This document shows positions 48,853 to 60,093 of a stretch of DNA of 64,000 bases, in pieces (position 1 is the first letter of the stretch; every line of letters starts with the position of its first letter). The notes under the pieces were generated by a model. That model searched no databases and had not been told where the DNA came from. It was given only the letters and a program-made list of their open reading frames with translations. A program made the translations under genes and the position numbers. The DNA is taken from the NCBI RefSeq assembly GCF_003790525.1, contig NZ_CP033635.1; one strand, given 5' to 3'. Source of the DNA: Escherichia coli (GTDB taxonomy: Bacteria; Pseudomonadota; Gammaproteobacteria; Enterobacterales; Enterobacteriaceae).

Positions 48853-49134
48853 AGATATGCTCCATATGGAAACGCACGACGCATCCCCGCCAGCGAAAGA
48901 CGAGCGTATGGTGAAACTGAAGGCGTCGTGTACTGAGATTGTTGATGTGATAACCGTGGAACCGGGGATGGCAGATGTCGTATGCCAGGACAGTCAGGAG
49001 ACCAGACAGGTGTAAAATTCCTGAGGTGGGTTTAAGGTGAATGATCTCCGTTGACTTCAGTTCACATCATTAATCAGGGCGGTAGATTTTTACCGACGGA
49101 GTGTTTCCAGGAGCGGAGGCTCAGGCCTTAAGCT

Positions 49135-49701
49135 TCAGAAGTGAGGCTTACGAGGACGCCCTGCAGCAGGACGCTCAGGAACTTCACTGCAGCCGTAGGC
49201 ACACAGCCCGTCTTTTTGCTCTTCTTTCGCCAGATAATGCAGGGCACCGCGAATATTATCGATGCTTTCAGGATCGTTGTGGCGCACAGGAATGTTGATG
49301 TTGTATGTATAATGCGGCTGATATGTACAGCGGTGTGCCGAACCGCTGTTATGCGTAATAGACTGCCAGCATTCCGTAATCCGCTCCGCAAAGGGATATA
49401 TTTTTTTAACCCTCTGACGATCGAGCCAGAAAACCGCATGCGCATGAAAACCATGATCAGCCGTCCATTCAATCACCCAGAAGAAACCAACGATATTTTC
49501 AAATTGTTCCACCTGCTCCAGCAGCATACGCAACTGCAATTCAAGCCAGCGATGATCAGGTTGTAAGAAATCAGGCGTATCTTTCCTGTAGAAGAAATCC
49601 ATGCGTAAGGCCCGCAGACGGGAATAGCGTGCGACCAACTGATTGATGTGATTGTCAAGTAAAGCGGTAAAAAACCAGTTTGGTGTGTAAGATTTAGGCA
49701 T
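49135..49701 (-). CDS. YfjJ/YagK-family (inovirus Gp2-like) protein, paralog 2
   Basis: 188 aa; ...HGFHAHAVFWLDRQRV... motif typical of the family. Confidence 0.6.
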   Translation of the reverse strand: MPKSYTPNWFFTALLDNHINQLVARYSRLRALRMDFFYRKDTPDFLQPDHRWLELQLRMLLEQVEQFENIVGFFWVIEWTADHGFHAHAVFWLDRQRVKKIYPFAERITECWQSITHNSGSAHRCTYQPHYTYNINIPVRHNDPESIDNIRGALHYLAKEEQKDGLCAYGCSEVPERPAAGRPRKPHF

Positions 49702-51296
49702 GCTGATGACTCCTGAAAGTTAATGACGTTTTAAGTGCTGTAAACGAATTAATGCTTTCGCTCATAATCAGATCTAAAACGGTAATAACTTACAGACGGT
49801 ATTTATCAGGCATGCTGTAACAGAATGGATACGTCGGTTATTAACGACACGTAGCGTTGTGCAGAAATAAATGGATTATCTGATGGTATTAGCTAAAGAG
49901 ATGAGATAAACGAGGAGTGAATAAAATACAGAATCAATAAACATCACGAAATACTGCAAAATATGCGATAAAAACCCACGATCAGAAGTTCAAGAAACAT
50001 ATTACGACTAATCACCATCATAAATTACAAACTTGCTCTCAATGGTTCTAAAAAACCGTGTACAAGGCCAACACGATACCTGTAACCCAATAAACTTACA
50101 CGCACTCATTTTATCTGTTAAAAACAACTCATGTTCAAGATATGAACGTTAACGGGTACACGGTACCAGAATGAAACATACCATGGATGGATAATTTTCA
50201 TTTTATTTAAAATACAAGATAATCAGGAACGAACAAACACAATCAGAAATTCACTCTATTAATTCTGTTATTTACCCTGCTCGGCTAATCGTTACAGAAT
50301 AATGGATACCTTATTAAAGAGTAAGCATTCAGTTAATCAGTGATGACAGAAGTATTGATATTTACCAGAATGGTTAAAACATATCAGATAAACAATCATT
50401 GTTAAGCAAATACAGCTCATGATGGATAAAATTAAAATAAATTATTATTTTACTGAAAACAGGAACAGATGGATATCAGCAATAGCGTAGTAGAGAATAA
50501 CTTATCTGAGTATCATATGAGTTACAGTAGTTATGATTGAGGAATGGAGAAGGTGGATACCATGATAATGGTGACAATGAAGATTAGACAAGGAAGGGAG
50601 TGAATATAACTGGATGAGAATAAGAGTAATGGAATGTGTAAAGACAGAGAGGGAAAATGAAGGGCAGAGATGGATGATAAATAAAGGGGTAGATACTAAT
50701 TATAGTAATAAACCTAAATTAAAATTATCCATGTTTGATGAGTAAAAATAAGAAATCATCCGTTCTGAATACGAACATGACAAACCATTATCTTACAGAA
50801 AAAATATCAAATCATTTTTCTTCACTCTCCTATTGAAATGCAAACTTGAACAGCATCTCTTTTCAGTAACAGTGATAACCATTCGTTATTCAGGCAGAGA
50901 CCGACATTATCATATACACCTACACTCATCACGACGAAAATCAAACGAAGTTATATATGAAAACTCACACAATATGGTTAATGATTAGCTTTAATCTATG
51001 TTAAAAATAATCTTTCGATTCACTTTCGATCAATAAAAAACGAAAGCCATGCTTCCACCAGTGCGCACACTCCTGTATTCAACCAGCTCTGACAGCAGGT
51101 CATTATGAAAACAAAATTAAATCACAGATGTGGTGCATGTGCTGCTACTGTTGCTACCGTAGCGGTTTTTTCAGAGAAATTCTCATTCCCCCCCATAATT
51201 GGTGAACATTTGCATAGGTGCAGGATATGCAAAACGCCTTATCACCAACCTCCGAATGAAGGTTGGTTGATTTTGTTTTATCTGTGTAAGGTTATT

Positions 51297-52901
51297 TCAA
51301 AATAAGCTATACTCTGAAAAAGGTGACGCAAATGACGGAATTAATTCCGGTGGAATATTAACGTGATATGCTTTCGCTTTATGAATATTCTCGGGTAGAA
51401 CAATATCAAACTGTTCGTAATACATTGCGCCTAAAGGAAGGAGGTAACCATTGTTACAATAAACAGAAACATAAAGTGCCTGATGCGATCGCATTCTGAT
51501 GATACATAAATACCCCTGACAGATTAACTGATTGAGTACAGGTGTAAGTTTTTCTGCTCTTCTCAGTCGATTGGGACCATATCTTTCAATGTCTGTTTTC
51601 CTGATAGCACGCCAATTATTCTGCCTTATTCGGGTCATAATCCATGCATACAGTTCACAGGCATCCTGTTCAAACTGGCATCGTGCAGACATGGGATAAA
51701 ATATTGTGCTCGCCTCCTCCAGATACCAGTCCATGAGATGCATAGCTTTAAAAAGCGCAATTGATTCAATTTCCTCAGCATCTTTATAGCAATAGCAGGT
51801 GAATATTCCAGCTATCCTCAGTATATTAGAACCTGCTTTCAGAACAATATCTCTGATGTGTTCCCACTCCCCGCCTGCAAGCGCTTTTCTTTCAATCTTA
51901 ATCTGGTTTTCCTGCCACTCCCCCAACGCTTTCTTCGCAAGTTTTAATGTCTTCCTTTCGGTGCTCATGCCGGGGAAATTAATGTTGTGGTTTAACAGGA
52001 ATCCGTTAATCTTTTTATGAAAGTTCTCCAGGGTTGATATTGTTCTGAACTCACCTCTCGTATAATCACGTATCCAGGAAGAACTTACAACCTGACTGAA
52101 CAGAAACCGGGAAAGAAATCCGCTTCCCCACGCCAGTACGTCATTTTTATTTATATAATTCGTAAAGACATCCGGCTGAGACATTAACGAAAATGTCAGA
52201 CGTGGCGCGATATGGTATTTCTCGTCAGCCCGTCCAAAATCAAACGGTTGCCCACTCCATGCTTTATTCAACAGGCCCGGATAATTTTTCAGATAGCTTC
52301 TGAAAAAAGTGACCGCCTCATCAGAAATAACCCCTGCCTCAGGATGTTCATTGAGCCCTTCCACAAGCGCTTTAAGCGAAACATCTTCATAGATAAAATT
52401 CGGTCGAACCGGACGTGTCGGTTTATTTCTTTCGTGATTACGCAGCGCCTCTTCTTCCTGTTCCCCCGGATACCCCCGGTTAACAACCTTTCTTAAATTG
52501 GCAGCAAGCGCTTTCTGCCGGGTATTCCAGATCTGTAGTTCAGTCTTATAATCTTTGTTTCTCTCTTCGTATTGTTGAATGAGTCGATCGGCAAATTCGT
52601 AACAGGGGTTCATCACCAGTCTGTTTATCGTTGTTTTTCCCGCGCCTGGCTCTGCGATTGCCAACAGATAAAGTGAGCAGGGTTCCGGCATGTTGGTGTG
52701 AGGATGAACAACGTCAACCAATGACTGACAGGAGAGTGAGAGCGTTGCCAGTACAGTATTAAAAATGAGCTCCAACGGAAGTTGGGTACTTTCATATAAG
52801 TCGTCAATGAGATACGCAAGCTCACTAGGAAATAATCTGTAGGTTAAATCAGCTGGGAAGTGGTGGGATGTCTGCAAGGATTGCACATAATCGGGATTCA
52901 T
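51297..52901 (-). CDS. DUF3987-like protein (YfjI-like; putative primase/helicase-associated)
   Basis: Start taken at second internal ATG (MNPDYVQSL) preceded by AGGAGG; P-loop-like AIAEPGAGKTT; about 534 aa. Confidence 0.5.
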   Translation of the reverse strand: MNPDYVQSLQTSHHFPADLTYRLFPSELAYLIDDLYESTQLPLELIFNTVLATLSLSCQSLVDVVHPHTNMPEPCSLYLLAIAEPGAGKTTINRLVMNPCYEFADRLIQQYEERNKDYKTELQIWNTRQKALAANLRKVVNRGYPGEQEEEALRNHERNKPTRPVRPNFIYEDVSLKALVEGLNEHPEAGVISDEAVTFFRSYLKNYPGLLNKAWSGQPFDFGRADEKYHIAPRLTFSLMSQPDVFTNYINKNDVLAWGSGFLSRFLFSQVVSSSWIRDYTRGEFRTISTLENFHKKINGFLLNHNINFPGMSTERKTLKLAKKALGEWQENQIKIERKALAGGEWEHIRDIVLKAGSNILRIAGIFTCYCYKDAEEIESIALFKAMHLMDWYLEEASTIFYPMSARCQFEQDACELYAWIMTRIRQNNWRAIRKTDIERYGPNRLRRAEKLTPVLNQLICQGYLCIIRMRSHQALYVSVYCNNGYLLPLGAMYYEQFDIVLPENIHKAKAYHVNIPPELIPSFASPFSEYSLF

Positions 52902-53274
52902 TGTAATGGACCTCCTTCGCATACTGTAATCAACGCAAAACTTACTGTTCAGTTCAGAAATATACCGACATTGTGAGTATGTTCGCTGACGTCGATAATA
53001 AAATGGCTTGTATCCATTCACCAGTCCCGACGCATTTATGATGCTGACAAAAGCAAAACGACATGGAGGTGCCTCAGAAGTCTGGCACCACAGCAACAAA
53101 CGATGGGGGCATGAAACACAGGGAACATTGCGCCCCTGAGCGTTGAGGATCTTCCACCTTGTATCCTGGTTCTTCGTTATCATGAGCAGCGAACAGATTT
53201 GGCAAAGCGTATGCAGCCTGGGGCCCCTTAGGGTTTAAGCCCATATGTAAGCAAATGGCGCATACGCTGAGCCA

Positions 53275-53317
<43 letters not shown>

Positions 53318-53334
53318 AGCAAGAATGGGCAATA

Positions 53335-53990
<656 letters not shown>

Positions 53991-54085
53991 AATGAATCCT
54001 GCCATCAGGTTACTCCATAATTTTGTTGGTCAAGACAGTTAATTACGTGACGTATGCTCAGGCACCGGATGCCGTTTTACAGGGC

Positions 54086-54817
54086 TCACCTGCCATCCAG
54101 TAGACGCCCCGGCCCACGACTGCAACCATAATTACGTTGCCCAGAACCGTCATGCTGCTTCGTCTCATACTTCACGAGATAACAGGCTCTCTCCATGGCT
54201 TTCTGCATCGCTTCCACATCACCACGCTTGACCCAGAGAACAGCGGCTTCACCCGGCTTTTTGTCTGAAGCCTTCCTGGTTTCAGAACATCCACCCGACA
54301 AAGGCGTATCATCGGAAGAAGGGCGAGCATCAGATGATGTCGGTTTACGGAAAGGCGTCCGCCTGGAAAAATGAACCAGTCCATTACCCTGCCAGGGCTC
54401 GAGATGCAGAGCACTGCACCATGCCAGCTTGATCAGCGTCGCCAGCGAAGAAGGAACGGTGAAATCCCCTGGCGAGCACCAGGTATCTTTGTTGAGCAGT
54501 AATATCACGTGATAATGTTTCCTGCCTTTTTCCTTGCCAAACTCCCGACACCAGAAATAACGCAGAGTGGTTGCACGCACACGCTTGTTGGCACGTCGTT
54601 TTTTCCGCTGGTAAGCCTGAATTTTTGCTTTCAGGGATTCGAAAAAACGAGAAATCACTGCTGAATCTAAATCGGTATCCATAATAGTGGCAGGCATATA
54701 CTCAGGAAAACGTAAATCCACCCGAATTAACGAGACGGCACGGTGCTGCACTAGGGCACTGTCGAGAAGGCTGTCAAAACGGGATAACCAGTAAGCATTG
54801 TGTATTGGTTGATTCAT
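54086..54817 (-). CDS. YfjJ/YagK-family (inovirus Gp2-like) protein, paralog 3
   Basis: 243 aa; ...KGRKHYHVILLLNKD... motif typical of the family. Confidence 0.6.
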   Translation of the reverse strand: MNQPIHNAYWLSRFDSLLDSALVQHRAVSLIRVDLRFPEYMPATIMDTDLDSAVISRFFESLKAKIQAYQRKKRRANKRVRATTLRYFWCREFGKEKGRKHYHVILLLNKDTWCSPGDFTVPSSLATLIKLAWCSALHLEPWQGNGLVHFSRRTPFRKPTSSDARPSSDDTPLSGGCSETRKASDKKPGEAAVLWVKRGDVEAMQKAMERACYLVKYETKQHDGSGQRNYGCSRGPGRLLDGR

Positions 54818-55669
54818 GATGAGAGATCTCCGTTGATTTGGATTGACTTCACATCATTAATCACTGCGGTAAAACTTTACGGCATCCCGCCATTGAGCAA
54901 CGCCAATGGCTCCTGATTAAAACAGAATGAATCCCCCACGAAGAAAAGATAAACCTACACGCAGGGTAAAACACACAACAACGGCATAAATGGTTTTTAA
55001 AAACTACAAAGCCCGAAGGGAAACGGATCAACAGAACGTGCAAACAAAACACCAAAAACGCAATCAGAACGCTTTCTGCTGCTGTGAATCAACAACAATA
55101 CCAAAACCTACAGCTTAACCACAAAACTCAATCACAGAGCCGAATAGCGCGTTTAAAACCTGTTTACAGATAACCCTGCCCCGAGAACAAAAACCACCAA
55201 CATCAGAATCGATTTTCTTATCCTGAAAACGTTACTTTTCAACACACCATAAAAACGATTAACCATCGATAACGTAAATCTCATCTGAATCAAAACACCA
55301 GAACCAATCATCACGCTTTTTCTGAAAAGAGCCTTATGATGAAGATAATCACCTTGCACTGAGAAAAAACACCAGGGCCAGTTAATCATCTCATCAATCT
55401 CATCGTTACAAAATCATCCATAAAACCATTTAACAAAATCATCGTAAGCACACAGTAAATCACGCCAGGTTATCTCAGCCGGATTTGCGTTTTACATAAA
55501 AACACTTGTCTCAGGTTAACGACTAAAAACACGAAAACTCATAAAAGGTTAAATGTAACATCAGAAAAATAGAATATCATATTGATTGCTTAAACAGGAA
55601 AGATTGTTTTGTAGTAGCATTAAGCTGATTTTAGTTAACGTAAAAACAGGACTGACAGGTTTACTAAAC

Positions 55670-55890
55670 TGGATGTGTATCAGACAAAGCAATGTGTATA
55701 ACAATACTTAATGAAAACACTTGTAGAATTGTTTATGAAAACATGTGTATGTCTGGTAAAACACTTAGTAGAAAATACGTGTATAACACTTACTGAAATG
55801 CTTAGTAAAAACACTTAGTAAAATATGTGTAGAATTATCTATTTAAAAAGATATGTATATAACACTTAATAAAAACATGTGTATATAGTA
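55670..55890. repeat. degenerate direct repeats (iteron-like) in AT-rich ORF-free region
   Basis: Recurring modules tgtgtat(a)aacacttagta / gtagaatt at about 55674, 55693, 55744, 55764, 55792, 55811, 55826, 55861, 55877. Confidence 0.5.
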
Positions 55891-56567
55891 TCATACCGAC
55901 ATTCTCAACATCTTCAGACACTCATGCAGACTGAATGTTCGTTTCAGTTTTTCACGGCCAGCATGGGGATTTTTGTTCTGAAAACGGAGCAGATTTACTC
56001 TGGAATTATTTTTCTGTCCCCGTATTTCAGGCCCCAGAAAAGACAATCCGAAGCAAACCGTTTGTCAGCTTCCATATCATCTTTTACCCCCGGAAAGTGA
56101 TCGCGTTTTACAACCAGAATGACAGCCATACTGATTATGTCGTCTCCCGGCCCCCTTCACATATAACATGCATGCCTGTCATTGCTTACTGCTCCACATG
56201 ACAGGATTTCACATACAGGATGCGCATTCAGTGTTTTTATCGCCACTATAACAGACAGATTACTGTCGCTTTTACTCTTCAGATTGTTAATCTGACCACA
56301 AGAACAGTCGAACAGTACAACGACACACCCAAGGAGGATATGAGCAGTAGTTGATAGCATGTTTTAATTTATTATGAATAGATCAAGAATAGATCGTGAA
56401 TAGTTAGAGAATAGTTCTTCAGCATCTCACAGAGTGATCAAGCCTTGAAGTGATTGCTTTTTGAACACAAGTCCGGATGCAATGTTTTTTTGTTAACTTC
56501 CTTGCATATTCGATTTCCATGTGATAGTGAAAATCACCAGAAGAGAATGCGATTGAGGCGTAATCAG

Positions 56568-57377
56568 ATGAAACAATATGAAGATGGTTATAACGTGAAT
56601 GGATATAGCTGGGAAAATGAAACAATTGAGTATTTGTTGAATGATAAACAACTGACAGATAATCACATACCTGAATGGGTTAAAAAAAATGAAATTGCAG
56701 CATTCTGGTTCTGGTTAGTTATAATTAACACAGATCCCAAACTCCTTGGGGTTCGTAATGAATTAGGGTTCAATACAGCCATGATGGGGCTGATTCCTGC
56801 GGGGAGTATACCCATAACAACAATTCCTTCAGATCATGAAATGAGACTGGATGTTATAAGCAAATGGATTAATGCATTAATCCTTGACAATCAATCAGAT
56901 TGCTTCATCTCAACAATGCATCAAAACTGGCTGCAGATCGAAAAGAGAAACGAAGCCAAATGGCTTAAAAAGAATACAGAACAACTCGAATGGGCATGGA
57001 AATATATCAATGCACGCATCCCGCACACGTATCTTTCCTGGTTTTATCCTGTAAGTGATAACGAAAGATACATTGCTATCGTAGTTTTACTAAAAATTTT
57101 ATTCCCCGCAGATACACCATACTTACAGCAGCCAAAAGTACTTCACTATGGGGTTGCCGCAAAAGAAAAATTTTTCGACAAGATGCACAATGCATTCCGA
57201 AAACAGTTTACCGACGGAAAAAAAGATAAGCGGGTACAAATCAACGTTAAAATATCATCAGATGCAAAACGTACTCTGGACAGACTGACCAGAGAACTGA
57301 AAACAACACAACAGGCTGTCCTGGAACATCTGATTCAGAACCACAGGCTGGTGATTCAGAACCACAGACTGTATTAA
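56568..57377 (+). CDS. hypothetical protein
   Basis: Start at ATG 56568 with GAGG upstream; about 269 aa; C-terminus encoded by an 18-bp tandem duplication (IQNHRLVIQNHRL); no family recognised. Confidence 0.4.
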   Translation: MKQYEDGYNVNGYSWENETIEYLLNDKQLTDNHIPEWVKKNEIAAFWFWLVIINTDPKLLGVRNELGFNTAMMGLIPAGSIPITTIPSDHEMRLDVISKWINALILDNQSDCFISTMHQNWLQIEKRNEAKWLKKNTEQLEWAWKYINARIPHTYLSWFYPVSDNERYIAIVVLLKILFPADTPYLQQPKVLHYGVAAKEKFFDKMHNAFRKQFTDGKKDKRVQINVKISSDAKRTLDRLTRELKTTQQAVLEHLIQNHRLVIQNHRLY

Positions 57378-58306
57378 CTTTCACCACTTCTGCTCCTGCC
57401 GATTTTCTTCTTTTGGTAGTGTCTCCTGGCTGCGGATATCAGATACTTTTCCGTCATTTTGTTGCAGAACTCTTCAATGTAGTTAATCATTTTCTGGTGT
57501 GCTTTCAGCTTTTCTTCCCCGGGGGACGCTTTCAGATAAATGTCCTCCTTTTCCACAAGCGCATTGACAAACTCCCCTAAACATCCCTGGTTATAAAGCG
57601 ACGTGAAAAACAACACATCCCCCAGTCTCTCCAGTAACTGTGGTTTATCCCCGAAATGTTTTTTTATACTTTCAAAAGGTTTTCTATTTTCCGGATCAAA
57701 AAAAACACTTAATCCCAGTCGCTTATATTCCTGGTAAAAAAGTTCAAACGTCGGGGATGCTGAACGGCAAATAAACGAAGACTGCGCCCATGGATTAAAA
57801 TCTGTGACACGCCTCCCCTCCCGCACTTCCTGTCGTGTCAGCGGTGGTTCAGCAAACCAGGCGTCCAGCTCAGCCGAATCGTTATCCCTGCTCAAAACCT
57901 CATACAAACTGCCCGTGAACGGTTGAGCCGTTTGTTTTGTTGCTTCGCCTTCTGATTGTCTGAATCCATCCACTTTTCTCCGGATATTACGCGGAATCAG
58001 CATAAAAGGCGGGACATTAAGTGATAAACGTTTACCCGTCATGCGATACCATTGACCTACCTCAACCTTAATCCGTGTATCTGACTTTAGCTCAAGTGCC
58101 ATTATGTTAAGCAGGTACAGATAACGCACCGTATAACGATTAAAATGTTTCTCCGGATCAAACGATTCTGACCGTTCTCCTCTGTACACGAGTCTGCTGC
58201 GCTTCAGTATTCGCAGAGTATATTTCCAGGCCGGACTTTTACAAATGGCGGTAACTCTGGCCTTATTAACAATGTCGCGTAATGCATCAATCTGTTGTGC
58301 AGTCAT
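57374..58306 (-). CDS. hypothetical protein
   Basis: About 310 aa, convergent with and overlapping by 4 nt the 56568-57377 gene; no family recognised. Confidence 0.4.
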   Translation of the reverse strand: MTAQQIDALRDIVNKARVTAICKSPAWKYTLRILKRSRLVYRGERSESFDPEKHFNRYTVRYLYLLNIMALELKSDTRIKVEVGQWYRMTGKRLSLNVPPFMLIPRNIRRKVDGFRQSEGEATKQTAQPFTGSLYEVLSRDNDSAELDAWFAEPPLTRQEVREGRRVTDFNPWAQSSFICRSASPTFELFYQEYKRLGLSVFFDPENRKPFESIKKHFGDKPQLLERLGDVLFFTSLYNQGCLGEFVNALVEKEDIYLKASPGEEKLKAHQKMINYIEEFCNKMTEKYLISAARRHYQKKKIGRSRSGES

Positions 58307-58412
58307 CTCTTCCCTCCACACTTTGTCACTCCAGATTTTTTCACGCCCATATTACCTGAATGATAAACCGGATTAGTGTGATCCGGTTCAGTGAAATCAA
58401 CAGGATACCGGT

Positions 58413-59297
58413 ATGTCATTCAGCCATTCTTCCCTCTCCGCACAAGTGAAATCATATCTGACGTTTCTTCCTGAAGAAATTCGCCAGAAAATCCTTGAAC
58501 ATCTCCACGGTGTTATTCATTACGAGCCCGTGATTGGCATTATGGGTAAATCCGGCACCGGCAAAAGCAGTCTGTGTAATGCCATTTTTCAGTCCCGTAT
58601 CTGCGCCACGCATCCCCTGAACGGCTGCACCCGCCAGGCTCATCGCCTCACCCTGCAGATTGGTGAACGCAGAATGACGCTGGTCGATCTGCCCGGCATT
58701 GGTGAAACACCGCAGCATGATCAGGAATACCGGGAGCTTTACCGTCAGTTACTGCCGGAACTGGATCTGATTATCTGGATCCTGCGGGCTGATGAACGTG
58801 CGTATGCTGCTGATATTGCCATGCATCAGTTTTTACTGAATGAAGGTGCAGATCCCTCGCGTTTTCTGTTTGTTCTCAGCCATGCCGATCGCGTGTTTCC
58901 TGCTGAAGAATGGAACGACGCAGAAAAATGCCCGTCCCGTCAGCAGGAACTCTCACTGGCGACAGTAACAGCCCGGGTGGCCACCCTGTTCCCGTCATCA
59001 TTTCCGGTACTCTCCGTTGCAGCGCCTGTCGGCTGGAATCTTCCGGCACTGGTGTCACTGATGATCCACGCACTGCCACCACAGGCAACCAGCGCGGTTT
59101 ATTCACATATCCGGGGGGAAAACCGCTCTGAACAGGCCCGGAAACACGCACAACAGACTTTTGGTGACGCCATCGGGAAAAGTTTTGACGACGCCGTTGC
59201 CCGGTTCAGTTTTCCGGCCTGGATGTTACAGCTTCTGCGTAAAGCCCGGGCCCGCATTATCCACCTACTGGTCACACTGTGGGATCACCTGTTCTGA
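58413..59297 (+). CDS. YfjP/YeeP/YkfA-family GTPase
   Basis: P-loop GKSGTGKSS, G3 DLPG, and conserved island position. Confidence 0.75.
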   Translation: MSFSHSSLSAQVKSYLTFLPEEIRQKILEHLHGVIHYEPVIGIMGKSGTGKSSLCNAIFQSRICATHPLNGCTRQAHRLTLQIGERRMTLVDLPGIGETPQHDQEYRELYRQLLPELDLIIWILRADERAYAADIAMHQFLLNEGADPSRFLFVLSHADRVFPAEEWNDAEKCPSRQQELSLATVTARVATLFPSSFPVLSVAAPVGWNLPALVSLMIHALPPQATSAVYSHIRGENRSEQARKHAQQTFGDAIGKSFDDAVARFSFPAWMLQLLRKARARIIHLLVTLWDHLF

Positions 59298-59415
59298 GCG
59301 CCCCGGAGTCCCCCGTGGCAACCGTATACCTTTACACGACAACGGATTACGGTAACCACTGCCGTATACCGTCTGTCATTATCAATAACACGCTCTTTAA
59401 TTTCAGAGGTCAGTC

Positions 59416-60093
59416 ATGAATACCAGAATGCTTTTTCCCCTGCTGTTCACTGTGGCATCCTTCTCCACCTCCGCCGGTAACTGGGCTGTCAAAAACGGCT
59501 GGTGTCAGACCATGACGGAAGATGGTCAGGCGCTGGTAATGCTGAAAAATGGCACGATTGGTATTACCGGCCTGATGCAGGGATGCCCGAATGGCGTACA
59601 GACGCTCCTGGGCAGCCGTATCAGTATTAACGGTAACCTGATCCCCACATCACAAATGTGTAATCAGCAGACAGGATTCAGGGCTGTTGAGGTGGAAGTC
59701 GGACAGGCGCCGGAAATGGTCAAAAAAGCCGTTCACTCCATAGCAGAGCGTGATGTGTCCGTTTTACAGGCATTTGGTGTACGAATGGAATTCACCCGCG
59801 GTGATATGCTGAAGGTCTGTCCGAAATTTGTCACATCACTTGCCGGTTTTTCCCCGAAACAGACACCCGCCATTAATAAAGATTCCGTCCTGCAGGCTGC
59901 CCGGCTGGCATACGCCCGGGAATATGACGAGGAAACAACAGAAACCGCTGATTTTGGCTCTTACGAAGTAAAAGGCAATAAGGTTGAGTTTGAAGTGTTC
60001 AATCCTGAAGACCGTGCGTACGACAAAGTGACCGTCACGGTTGGTGCTGACGGTAATGCCACCGGTGCCAGCGTTGAATTTATCGGAAAATAG
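59416..60093 (+). CDS. hypothetical exported protein
   Basis: Signal peptide MNTRMLFPLLFTVASFSTSA; 225 aa. Confidence 0.45.
   Translation: MNTRMLFPLLFTVASFSTSAGNWAVKNGWCQTMTEDGQALVMLKNGTIGITGLMQGCPNGVQTLLGSRISINGNLIPTSQMCNQQTGFRAVEVEVGQAPEMVKKAVHSIAERDVSVLQAFGVRMEFTRGDMLKVCPKFVTSLAGFSPKQTPAINKDSVLQAARLAYAREYDEETTETADFGSYEVKGNKVEFEVFNPEDRAYDKVTVTVGADGNATGASVEFIGK

What the first reader, a model, noticed from the sequence alone, without database searches (positions are those of the whole stretch)
55670..55890. Iteron-like degenerate direct repeats in a 1.6-kb AT-rich ORF-free stretch of the CP4-like island
At least five to six copies of a tgtgtat / aacacttagta / gtagaatt module recur at irregular spacing in a region (about 54850-56450) with no ORF over 60 codons. 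Such arrays are typical of replication origins or multi-site regulator binding regions, and the island encodes DUF3987 and Gp2-like proteins that could act there.
Basis: partly seen in the sequence, partly recalled or inferred. Interest (0 to 1): 0.45.

Follow-up and report, generated by a model that had tools for sequence, protein, structure and literature searches.

The report
Repeat array beside island Rep-like gene
The short repeats are real and form part of a conserved, never-annotated DNA control element that always lies upstream of a rolling-circle-type nicking-enzyme gene in a genomic island family found in about a third of E. coli genomes, so it is a plausible, still untested, origin of replication or transfer for these islands.

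Summary
Positions 55673-55884 carry seven ATGTGTAT-like and seven ACACTTAGTA-like units, all on one strand. This is about 7 times the repeat density of shuffled sequence. It is also the most repeat-dense and the least stable duplex in the 64 kb.

The array is conserved in 1,864 of 5,426 complete E. coli genomes and is never annotated. Copy number varies by whole units.

It is one part of a larger element:
- the repeat array;
- a 20-bp box 1 (TATAGTATCATACCGACATT, 55884-55903);
- a fast-evolving spacer of fixed length (box starts 102 nt apart in 15 of 15 variants);
- box 2 (CTCTGGAATTAT, 55998-56009).

A comparable element, with lineage-specific repeats in several cases, lies upstream of the "inovirus Gp2 family" gene in eight further lineages, including Providencia and Brenneria (35-51% protein identity).

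That gene (54086-54817, minus strand) encodes an HUH endonuclease with intact HUH and tyrosine motifs and a Rep-like fold.

Best reading (about 0.4): a binding and nicking site for this Rep-like protein that overlaps a promoter. Main rival (about 0.3): a purely transcriptional control region. No link to DUF3987 or DnaA was found. Binding, nicking and replication remain untested.

The parts
54086..54817 (-). 'Inovirus Gp2 family' gene (243 aa): an HUH endonuclease of the rolling-circle Rep type. It is the candidate protein acting on the element.
54818..54920 (.). Conserved stretch next to the Gp2 start codon. It probably holds the gene's own promoter.
   Evidence: Nearly invariant in 7 E. coli variants. 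By eye, a GT(T)AAAAA(C/T) motif at a similar position in several of the distant loci, including L021, which lacks the distal element. Inferred.
54921..55560 (+). A+C-rich, G-poor non-coding stretch. The lower part is replaced by an unrelated insert carrying a 176-aa ORF in some variants.
   Evidence: G is 8-16 per 100 nt; AT skew up to +0.5. The insertion variant is L007/L014/L017. A similar skew is seen in Providencia but not in four other lineages. Unexplained.
55200..55300 (.). Highly conserved non-coding block (the conserved sequence runs from about 55206) with ATCGAT and AACGT motifs.
   Evidence: Mean pairwise identity 0.944, against 0.90 at Gp2 third codon positions and 0.82-0.85 in neighbouring non-coding DNA.
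55673..55884 (+). The repeat array of the finding: 7 ATGTGTAT-like units, 7 ACACTTAGTA-like units and 2 GTAGAATT, all on one strand. Three composite units TGTGTATAACAC(TT) contain a GTGT...ACAC inverted repeat.
   Evidence: Copy number varies by whole units among 15 variants, giving an array of about 110-220 bp. Identity 0.913. It is the least stable 200-bp duplex of the 64 kb (-220.7 against -277.6 +/- 20.9 kcal/mol).
55884..55903 (+). Box 1, TATAGTATCATACCGACATT: a conserved 20-bp box. Its 5' half is both -10-like (TATAGT) and similar to the Rep nick motif TA(A/G)TATT*AC. It is the candidate nick region and/or promoter plus start site.
   Evidence: Identity 0.946 in E. coli. Homologous boxes: TATATTACTATATCCGACAT (Providencia), TATATTACCAATCAGACAT (L023), TATATTACCAATCCAACG (L065) and others. 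The nonanucleotides are taken from PMC7826260.
55904..55997 (.). Spacer between the two boxes. Its sequence evolves fast but its length is fixed.
   Evidence: Identity over 55904-55994 is only 0.771, yet there is no indel. The box starts are 102 nt apart in 15 of 15 variants and 103 nt in L063. No significant fold on either strand.
55998..56009 (+). Box 2, CTCTGGAATTAT: a conserved box at the edge of the island backbone. In some lineages it resembles the local repeat unit.
   Evidence: Unique in the window. Identity over 55995-56012 is 0.967. Exact or near-exact in Providencia, Brenneria, L023, L024 and L065; a variant ACTCTGA(A/G)ATTA in L025, L064 and L066.
56013..58336 (.). Variable cargo slot between box 2 and the conserved GTPase upstream region. 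It is not part of the element but is delimited by it.
   Evidence: Alignments diverge right after box 2. They re-converge at TTTTTCACGCCCATATTACC (58337), 76 nt before the GTPase ATG. The cargo differs between variants. By eye, Providencia has sequences resembling both junctions about 28 nt apart, with no cargo.
58413..59297 (+). YeeP/YfjP-like GTPase gene, first gene of the rightward operon (DUF905, DUF932, antirestriction, RadC, CbeA/CbtA). It is transcribed divergently from Gp2.
   Evidence: Annotation of the identical record. NCBIfam GTPase hits. The same divergent layout occurs in Providencia and Brenneria.

Best explanation
The repeats are the variable, iteron-like part of a conserved cis element. 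The element runs: repeat array, then box 1, then a spacer of fixed length, then box 2. It belongs to the island's small HUH endonuclease, the 'inovirus Gp2 / YagK-YfjJ family' protein encoded next to it.

**Proposed mechanism.**
1. The protein, possibly with DNA-bending host factors, binds the ACAC-core units as double-stranded sites.
2. The array is the easiest-melting DNA in the region, so it opens.
3. The enzyme nicks one strand in or beside box 1 and attaches through its conserved tyrosine.
4. This starts rolling-circle replication, or single-strand transfer, of the excised island. The antirestriction/RadC operon sits on the side that would lead.
5. Box 1 also carries a -10-like hexamer, so the same binding would modulate transcription.

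**Shown:** the repeats, their conservation, the multi-part architecture, its constant position upstream of the Gp2-family gene in nine lineages, and the HUH/Tyr motifs and fold of that protein.

**Inferred:** who binds, any nicking, the nick position, and any replication or transfer.
For: - **Real, strand-specific repeats** far above chance.
- **Retained in orthologues.** 1,864 of 5,426 E. coli genomes match, 1,774 at 80% coverage or more. Unit number varies but the array is never fully lost, except in a rare variant found in 9 genomes.
- **Conserved boxes.** Box 1 and box 2 are as conserved as non-synonymous Gp2 positions (0.946 and 0.967 against 0.947). Flanking non-coding DNA is at 0.77-0.85.
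- **Fixed spacing.** The boxes stay 102 nt apart although 23% of the spacer differs between variants.
- **Same architecture elsewhere.** Box 1 and box 2 lie upstream of the Gp2 homologue in Providencia, Brenneria, L023, L024, L025, L064, L065 and L066, whose proteins are 35-51% identical (alignment A1). Short direct repeats precede box 1 in L018, L023, L025 and L064, and more weakly in L024 and L065; none is evident there in Brenneria or L066. The far-side neighbour may be a divergent GTPase operon, alpA, or a co-directional gene.
- **The protein is a Rep-type nuclease.** HUH and Tyr motifs are conserved. Pfam REP_ORF2-G2P matches. The fold is closest to the NS1/AAV Rep, SIRV Rep, Helitron and pMV158 RepB nuclease or origin-binding domains.
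- **Easy melting.** The array is the least stable duplex of the window and abuts box 1.
- **Nick-motif resemblance.** The box 1 core TATATTACC / TATAGTA(T/C)C resembles Rep nick motifs TAATATT*ACC and TAGTATT*ACC (PMC7826260).
- **Origin-like layout.** Nuclease gene, then intergenic element, then a divergent operon with antirestriction genes. This mirrors relaxase-oriT-leading-region and geminivirus Rep-iteron-nonanucleotide layouts (the parallel is from general knowledge).
Against: - No conserved hairpin or significant single-strand fold surrounds box 1. Many Rep origins have one.
- Within the array, repeat columns are no more conserved than spacer columns (0.91 and 0.88 against 0.93). Array identity (0.913) is about the same as Gp2 third codon positions (0.90).
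- The rare L063-type variant keeps a 96%-identical Gp2 but has a different sequence in place of the array.
- The element is absent next to other family members: K-12 yfjJ, Providencia vermicola and L026.
- In E. coli the element lies about 0.85-1.1 kb from the gene.
- No homologue occurs in phages and almost none in plasmids.
- No published evidence shows that these islands replicate or transfer through this protein.
- The conserved TATAKT hexamer is equally well read as a promoter -10.
Confidence: 0.4

Rival explanations
1. A purely transcriptional control region. A sigma-70 promoter has its -10 at 55884-55889 (TATAGT), starts near 55895 and reads rightward. The AT-rich array upstream provides operator, activator or UP-element sites for an island regulator (AlpA-like HTH, WYL/DeoR-type) or for nucleoid proteins (H-NS, Fis, IHF). 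No DNA processing is involved.
For: - The hexamer is kept in every variant examined. In the E. coli variants the only change seen is to the consensus TATAAT in L004. It reads TATATT at the same distance from the GACA core in most of the other lineages; L025, L064 and L066 deviate.
- In Providencia and Brenneria the element lies in a short divergent intergenic region between the Gp2-alpA and GTPase/DUF932 operons.
- A repeat unit always overlaps the -35 position, as in activator-dependent promoters.
- The array has the lowest duplex stability, and very AT-rich horizontally acquired DNA is a typical H-NS target (general knowledge).
Against: - There is no acceptable -35 (AACACT). The promoter scan reports only a 9/12 match using other hexamers, and finds fewer promoter-like sites in the region than in shuffles.
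- In L024 and L025 such a promoter would fire antisense into alpA. In L064 it would fire against a co-directional gene.
- In E. coli it would read into variable cargo that includes converging genes.
- Twenty conserved base pairs extend well beyond a -10. A second conserved box at a fixed distance of 102 nt is not explained by a simple promoter.
- The GTPase gene has its own conserved 76-nt upstream region.
Confidence: 0.3
2. AT-rich, slippage-prone filler DNA that serves only as a xenogeneic-silencing (H-NS) patch or has no sequence-specific function. On this view the repeats are by-products of replication slippage and unequal recombination.
For: Copy number changes by whole units. Repeat and spacer columns are equally conserved, and array identity is close to the synonymous-site proxy. 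IS elements insert in this stretch in several genomes (H13-H17). 20-25% GC.
Against: - Arrays of different sequence occupy the same position relative to box 1 in several distant lineages.
- The array is more conserved than the flanking non-coding DNA (0.91 against 0.77-0.85).
- It is kept in more than 99% of E. coli copies.
- The strict single-strand orientation of all 14 units is not expected from composition alone.
Confidence: 0.13
3. A theta-type iteron origin (oriV) served by the DUF3987/YfjI primase-helicase-like protein and DnaA, as in P4-like or PICI replicons.
For: A YfjI-family gene lies 2 kb to the left. One perfect relaxed DnaA box, TTATACACA, lies at 55693-55701. The array is AT-rich and easily melted.
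Against: - YfjI is not co-conserved. Beyond Gp2 the variants carry acyltransferase, restriction endonuclease, TIR or IS genes.
- The DnaA box is lost in most variants (TGTGTACAG or TGTGTATAG).
- The units are 8-10 bp at irregular spacing of 12-27 bp, not phased iterons of about 20 bp.
- K-12 CP4-57, which has yfjI, lacks the element.
Confidence: 0.04
4. The array is the promoter of a small regulatory RNA or structured leader of about 115 nt, running from box 1 to box 2.
For: A -10-like hexamer precedes box 1 and a T-rich run follows box 2. RNAalifold proposes a CGACAUUC/GAAUGUUG stem with only A/G changes opposite U, and one compensatory change in a CCAG/CUGG stem.
Against: The body is the least conserved part (0.77). 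The consensus fold is weak (-7.9 kcal/mol). Single-sequence folds have z of about 0 on both strands. There is no Rfam match at E<=1. No conserved terminator hairpin was found.
Confidence: 0.05

Closest known systems
Double-strand origins of rolling-circle replicons with separate 'bind' and 'nic' loci (pMV158 RepB with its distal direct repeats; AAV Rep with GCTC repeats plus a nick site; parvovirus NS1 with ACCA repeats)
   Same: A small HUH nuclease gene lies next to a non-coding region. That region has a run of short same-strand direct repeats and a separate conserved box some tens of bp away. The fold of the protein here is closest to exactly these origin-binding nuclease domains.
   Different: The context is a chromosomal genomic island, not a plasmid or virus. 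The repeat number is much larger and more variable. No hairpin surrounds the candidate nick box. A second box lies at a fixed 102 nt. Binding and nicking are untested. The spacing and repeat details of the known systems are from general knowledge, not tested here.
Geminivirus/CRESS-DNA virus intergenic region (Rep gene - lineage-specific iterons - invariant nonanucleotide TAATATT*AC - divergent genes)
   Same: The HUH Rep gene is transcribed away from an intergenic region. In that region lineage-specific short repeats sit just upstream of a conserved TATATTACC-like box. Divergent genes lie on the other side. The box matches the 10-mers TAATATTACC and TAGTATTACC at 8-9 of 10 positions in L023, L024 and L065, and less well in E. 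coli.
   Different: There is no GC-rich stem-loop presenting the motif. The E. coli box reads TATAGTATCA or TATAGTACCA. The protein has no helicase domain. The motif equally fits a sigma-70 -10 element.
Conjugative/mobilisable oriT regions (relaxase gene - oriT - leading region with antirestriction genes)
   Same: A divergent intergenic position lies between an HUH enzyme gene and an operon with antirestriction, DUF932, RadC and toxin-antitoxin genes. The region is AT-rich and repeat-rich.
   Different: The protein is Rep-like, not a MOB-family relaxase. There is no nic-proximal inverted repeat. No coupling protein or mating-pair genes were seen in the annotated island. Transfer is untested.
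Iteron-type plasmid origins (oriV of pSC101, R6K, RK2, P1; P4 ori/crr)
   Same: Clustered direct repeats lie next to an easily melted AT-rich segment.
   Different: The units are short (8-10 bp) and irregularly spaced. There is no winged-helix Rep gene and no conserved DnaA boxes. The DUF3987 gene is not linked.

Membership tests
Rolling-circle (HUH Rep) origin | Adjacent gene encodes an HUH endonuclease with a metal-binding HUH motif and a catalytic Tyr | tested here: met
Rolling-circle (HUH Rep) origin | Cis site is kept next to the rep gene across relatives | tested here: met
   Box 1 and box 2 lie upstream of the gene in E. coli and in eight further lineages. The element is absent from three other family members.
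Rolling-circle (HUH Rep) origin | Conserved nick sequence cleaved by the Rep | tested here: inconclusive
   A conserved 20-bp box 1 resembles TA(A/G)TATT*AC. Cleavage cannot be tested in silico, and the motif doubles as a -10 hexamer.
Rolling-circle (HUH Rep) origin | Nick site presented in a hairpin loop or next to an inverted repeat (many, not all, families) | tested here: not met
   DNA folds of 55840-56020 have z +0.21 and -0.20. No conserved stem was found across lineages.
Rolling-circle (HUH Rep) origin | Rep binds the repeats; single-stranded intermediates; autonomous replication | not testable with these tools
   Needs EMSA or footprinting, nicking assays and copy-number assays.
Iteron-type theta origin (oriV) | Regularly phased iterons of about 17-22 bp | tested here: not met
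   Units are 8-10 bp in modules of 12-27 bp with irregular spacing.
Iteron-type theta origin (oriV) | Conserved DnaA boxes | tested here: not met
   One TTWTNCACA match lies in the array. It is lost in most variants.
Iteron-type theta origin (oriV) | Cognate initiator gene linked to the repeats (here proposed: DUF3987/YfjI) | tested here: not met
   YfjI is not adjacent in the other variants. K-12 has yfjI without the element.
Iteron-type theta origin (oriV) | Adjacent AT-rich unwinding region | tested here: met
   Least stable 100-bp and 200-bp duplexes of the 64 kb.
Conjugative oriT | Relaxase-type HUH gene divergent from a leading region carrying anti-restriction genes | tested here: inconclusive
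   The layout fits. However, the protein is Rep-like, not a known MOB family, and in L024, L025 and L064 the far-side gene differs.
Conjugative oriT | nic-proximal inverted repeat | tested here: not met
   Only weak, non-conserved inverted repeats.
Sigma-70 promoter with upstream operator array | Conserved -10 hexamer at a fixed position | tested here: met
   TATAGT (TATAAT in L004) in the E. coli variants. TATATT in most other lineages; L025, L064 and L066 deviate.
Sigma-70 promoter with upstream operator array | -35 element or an identified activator site; a consistent downstream gene | tested here: not met
   The -35 position reads AACACT. The scan gives only a 9/12 match with other hexamers. 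The downstream content is variable or antisense.
Sigma-70 promoter with upstream operator array | Mapped transcription start | not testable with these tools
   No expression data are available. No paper mentions these sequences.
Known RNA families (Rfam 15) | Covariance-model match | tested here: not met
   No match in 54818-56567 at E<=1.

The most novel reading that the evidence does not exclude
The Gp2-family HUH enzyme, box 1 and box 2 could together form a site-specific single-strand cut-and-join system. On this reading it does more than replicate or transfer the island: it also captures and swaps the cargo cassette that begins immediately after box 2.

What fits this reading:
- Cargo differs completely between otherwise homologous islands.
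- The left junction is sharp, at 56012.
- The right junction (58337) starts with CCATATTACC. This resembles the TATATTACC form of box 1 in other lineages and lies on the same strand.

The arrangement is reminiscent of the origin and terminator ends of rolling-circle transposons (IS91/ISCR, Helitrons).
Probability: 0.06. Interest if true: 0.8.

Novelty: new member of a known kind. Interest (0 to 1): 0.5.

Why it matters
Islands of this type (pheV, leuX and similar tRNA-linked 'CP4-like' islands) carry virulence, resistance and defence genes. The non-coding element studied here is found in about a third of complete E. coli genomes, often in several copies.

How these islands move is unclear. What their YagK/YfjJ ('inovirus Gp2 family') proteins do is also unknown: no functional study was found in the searchable literature. 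A Pseudomonas preprint lists Gp2-like proteins among the core genes of a widespread island class.

This work links an intact HUH nuclease to a conserved, precisely delimited cis element: a repeat array, a 20-bp box, a fixed spacer and a 12-bp box. That gives a concrete hypothesis that can be tested cheaply. The islands may be rolling-circle replicons, or may be mobilised through a Rep-like relaxase. Exact sequences are now available for binding, nicking, copy-number and mobilisation assays.

The element also marks the exact left border of a cargo hotspot. If the regulatory rival proves right instead, the element is still an unannotated, deeply conserved control region of a very common island backbone.

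Tried and rejected
- **Known RNA:** Rfam scan of 50000-60000 at E<=1 found nothing in the gap.
- **Structured single strand:** DNA folds of both strands around box 1 to box 2 have z of about 0. RNAalifold gives a weak consensus with one compensatory event.
- **DnaA-box cluster:** only one perfect relaxed box, not conserved.
- **Hidden coding:** ORFs of 64-88 codons exist but are broken by indels and start-codon loss in the alignments. They are not annotated in the identical record.
- **K-12 counterpart:** CP4-57 has alpA-yfjI-yfjJ but no homologue of the region and no two-box pattern. K-12 literature and data therefore do not apply.
- **Plasmid or phage origin:** 4 plasmid hits and 0 phage hits.
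- **Wider sampling:** the GTDB scan with the protein returned only 2 loci. The viral-contig pattern scan returned 36 hits, of which only L052 was a true homologue.
- **AlpA as a Q-like antiterminator loading at box 1:** the P. aeruginosa AlpA is a different, larger protein with a GGGACG site.
- **ACCGACATT as an island-wide operator:** the motif is enriched in the window (4 copies against 0.44 expected), with copies upstream of yfjI and in the second long non-coding region. It is not consistently found in other loci. Left open.
- **Motif-specific purifying selection inside the array:** not seen.
- **Cargo proteins as the binding factors:** no Pfam or PADLOC assignment, only a weak C-terminal ribbon-helix-helix hint in the 269-aa protein. 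The cargo also varies between islands.
- **Literature:** no paper mentions the element's sequences or a function for YagK/YfjJ.
Full report
**Context.** The window matches E. coli O157:H16 strain Santai at 100% identity. The region belongs to a large composite island next to the gsp/yghD genes. It carries resistance genes and fimbrial (pap) regulator genes and a CP4-like backbone. Around the finding the order is:
- YfjI/DUF3987 (51297-52901, minus strand);
- an IS110 fragment;
- an 'inovirus Gp2 family' gene (54086-54817, minus strand);
- an unannotated gap (54818-56567);
- two hypothetical genes (56568-57377 plus strand; 57374-58306 minus strand);
- a YeeP/YfjP-like GTPase (58413-59297, plus strand);
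- DUF905, DUF932, antirestriction, RadC, DUF987 and CbeA/CbtA.

**The observation.**
- A degenerate pattern for the ATGTGTAT unit matches 7 times on the plus strand of the 64 kb. All 7 lie in 55673-55884.
- A pattern for the ACACTTAGTA unit matches 9 times on the plus strand. Seven of these lie in 55704-55871.
- None lies on the minus strand of the array.
- Same-strand 7-mer pairs number 72, against 10.6 +/- 4.5 in 2000 dinucleotide shuffles. No 236-bp window of the 64 kb is denser.
- Three composite units read (A)TGTGTATAACAC(TT). They contain a GTGT/ACAC inverted repeat, so the two unit types may be one half-site, A(A/T)ACAC(A/T)T, in two orientations. This last point is my inference.
- The 200 bp from 55696 form the least stable duplex of the whole window. 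The least stable 100 bp (55795-55894) abut the conserved box described below.
- Two details of the finding need correction. Mechanical ORFs of 64-88 codons do exist in the gap, although none is conserved or annotated. Only about 55400-55900 is strongly AT-rich.

**Conservation within E. coli.**
- A 401-bp query around the array finds 2,513 places in 1,864 of 5,426 complete genomes. Identity is 70-100%, there are up to 6 copies per genome, almost all are chromosomal, and none is annotated.
- Plasmids give 4 hits and phages none.
- In 15 aligned variants the array changes length from about 110 to 220 bp through gain or loss of whole units, while the retained units keep their sequence.
- Mean pairwise identity values come:

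| Region | Identity |
|---|---|
| Gp2 third codon positions | 0.90 |
| Gp2 first and second positions | 0.947 |
| Array | 0.913 |
| 55301-55660 | 0.82-0.85 |
| 55200-55300 | 0.944 |
| Box 1, TATAGTATCATACCGACATT (55884-55903) | 0.946 |
| Spacer between the boxes (55904-55994) | 0.771 |
| Box 2 region (55995-56012), around CTCTGGAATTAT at 55998-56009 | 0.967 |

- The spacer has no indel despite its divergence. The box starts are 102 nt apart in 15 of 15 variants and 103 nt in a divergent sixteenth.
- Inside the array, repeat columns are no better conserved than spacer columns.
- A rare variant found in 9 genomes has unrelated sequence in place of the array, next to a transposase remnant. It keeps box 1, box 2 and a 96%-identical Gp2 protein.

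**Backbone and cargo.** Homology between variants stops immediately after box 2, at 56012. It resumes at 58337, 76 nt before the GTPase start codon. Between these points the variants carry different genes: two hypothetical genes, or one minus-strand gene of 376-407 aa, among others. Genes beyond Gp2 also vary (acyltransferase, restriction endonuclease, TIR protein, IS). Only Gp2 and the non-coding element are constantly linked, so DUF3987/YfjI is not a conserved partner.

**Beyond E. coli.** Gp2 homologues of 35-51% identity (alignment A1) were located on their contigs.
- In Providencia heimbachae the Gp2-alpA genes and the GTPase-HTH-antirestriction-DUF932 operon diverge from a 450-bp gap. 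In Brenneria the equivalent gap is 745 bp.
- Read in the window's orientation, eight lineages show a box 1 homologue and, 78-123 nt further on, a box 2 homologue. They are Providencia L018, Brenneria L020, L023, L024, L025, L064, L065 and L066. Short direct repeats precede box 1 in L018, L023, L025 and L064, and more weakly in L024 and L065. None is evident there in Brenneria or L066.
- The repeats differ by lineage: AAACACATA, ATACTCTCT, TAACACTCTATTTATTA and TACTGRTC.
- Box 1 homologues include TATATTACTATATCCGACAT, TATATTACCAATCAGACAT, TATATTACCAATCCAACG and TATATTTACTACTAAACCAACAAG.
- Box 2 reads CTCTGGARTTAT, or ACTCTGA(A/G)ATTA.
- The gene on the far side may be the divergent operon, alpA pointing towards Gp2 (L024, L025), or a co-directional gene (L064). 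The constant relation is therefore with the Gp2-family gene.
- K-12 yfjJ, a Providencia vermicola homologue and L026 lack the pattern.

**The protein.**
- Pfam gives YagK_YfjJ_C (2e-36) and REP_ORF2-G2P (1e-7). PHROGs gives replication-initiation families.
- The sequence carries GRKHYHVILLL and ACYLVKYETK. The HUH histidines are nearly invariant, and the consensus RAxYLxKxxTK holds across the family, including K-12 YfjJ.
- It is therefore an HUH endonuclease of the Rep type without a helicase domain.

**Interpretation.** From general knowledge, characterised Rep-type HUH proteins act on a cis site near their gene. That site combines repeated double-strand binding sites with a conserved nick sequence. 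The architecture found here fits: variable repeats, an invariant box, a fixed distance to a second box, and the easiest-melting DNA of the region directly beside the box.

The 5' half of box 1 matches the published Rep targets TAATATT*ACC and TAGTATT*ACC at 8-9 of 10 positions in three lineages, and more loosely in E. coli. The gene layout also fits: nuclease gene, then element, then a divergent operon with antirestriction genes. It resembles relaxase-oriT-leading-region and geminivirus intergenic regions.

I therefore favour, at about 0.4, a binding and nicking site for the Gp2-family protein, that is, an origin of rolling-circle replication or of transfer, overlapping a promoter.

Against this reading:
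- no conserved hairpin or significant fold is present;
- the array is only weakly constrained and can be replaced;
- the element is absent beside some family members;
- there is no experimental evidence of any kind.

**Rivals.**
- The same TATAKT hexamer is a good -10, and the ancestral position is a divergent intergenic region. A purely regulatory element (promoter plus operator, activator or H-NS sites) is therefore the main rival, at about 0.3. It is weakened by the missing -35, by the inconsistent or antisense downstream content, and by 20-bp and 12-bp boxes held at a fixed distance.
- Non-specific AT-rich filler or a silencing patch: about 0.13.
- A small RNA: about 0.05.
- A DnaA- or YfjI-dependent theta origin: about 0.04.

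**Novelty and value.** The kind of element (a Rep-type nuclease with repeats and a conserved box, or alternatively a repeat-rich control region) is known. This family, its multi-part architecture and its place in a very common E. coli island backbone are, as far as the searchable literature shows, undescribed. It turns the unknown role of YagK/YfjJ proteins, and the mobility of these islands, into direct experiments with defined sequences.

Noticed in passing
window 56376-56414: Four tandem 11-bp units GAATAG(A/T)T(C/T)NN lie about 150 bp upstream of the 269-aa hypothetical gene. That gene's C-terminus has weak ribbon-helix-helix / RepB-regulator similarity (E 0.08-0.3). The repeats belong to the cargo-specific part, are shared only by variants with the same cargo, and may be an operator for that protein.
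   Followed up: partly
window 56013-58336: A sharply bounded cargo slot lies between box 2 and the conserved GTPase upstream region. Here it holds two proteins (269 and 310 aa) with no Pfam, NCBIfam, PHROG or PADLOC assignment. Other E. coli variants carry a single 376-407-aa minus-strand gene instead.
   Followed up: partly
window 49701-51296: A second long unannotated stretch of 1.6 kb lies upstream of a second YagK/YfjJ-domain gene (about 49134-49700, minus strand). It is conserved in 1,572 genomes. It has a purine-rich tract at about 50530-50690 and a copy of ACCGACATT at 50900, but no box 2 and no dense repeat array.
   Followed up: partly
window 37674(-), 50900(+), 52964(+), 55895(+): The 9-mer ACCGACATT (core of box 1) occurs 4 times against 0.44 expected. 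One copy lies about 63 bp upstream of the annotated yfjI start. It may be a shared operator, but the pattern is not consistently seen in other loci.
   Followed up: partly
window 54921-55560: Strong strand asymmetry in non-coding DNA: A 37-48% and G 8-16% on the plus strand. Providencia shares this but four other lineages do not. In some E. coli variants the lower part is replaced by an unrelated insert with a 176-aa ORF. No explanation.
   Followed up: partly
L003 (NZ_CP173484.1), aligned to window ~55190: A CATCAC hexanucleotide microsatellite is expanded (about 9 copies) inside the non-coding region of one variant.
   Followed up: no
window 34040-34340: The second most repeat-dense and second least stable stretch of the window. 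It includes 3 perfect AGCAAACAC units (34300-34328). From the annotation of the neighbouring record it probably belongs to the pap/fae-type fimbrial regulatory region. It is not related to the finding.
   Followed up: no
window 54086-54817, residues ~150-190 of the protein: The E. coli Gp2-family proteins carry an insertion of about 45 residues, low in complexity and predicted disordered (pLDDT <50). It lies between the HUH core and the Tyr motif and is absent from Providencia, Brenneria and K-12 YfjJ homologues.
   Followed up: no
several genomes, hits H13-H17: IS5, IS2, IS3 and IS1 copies are inserted within the 1.7-kb non-coding stretch in different strains. The region tolerates or attracts insertions.
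   Followed up: no
window 58413-59297: The YeeP/YfjP-like GTPase has a weak PADLOC match to LeoBC (E 5e-8, C-terminal 100 residues). This hints at a dynamin-like defence-associated family.
   Followed up: no
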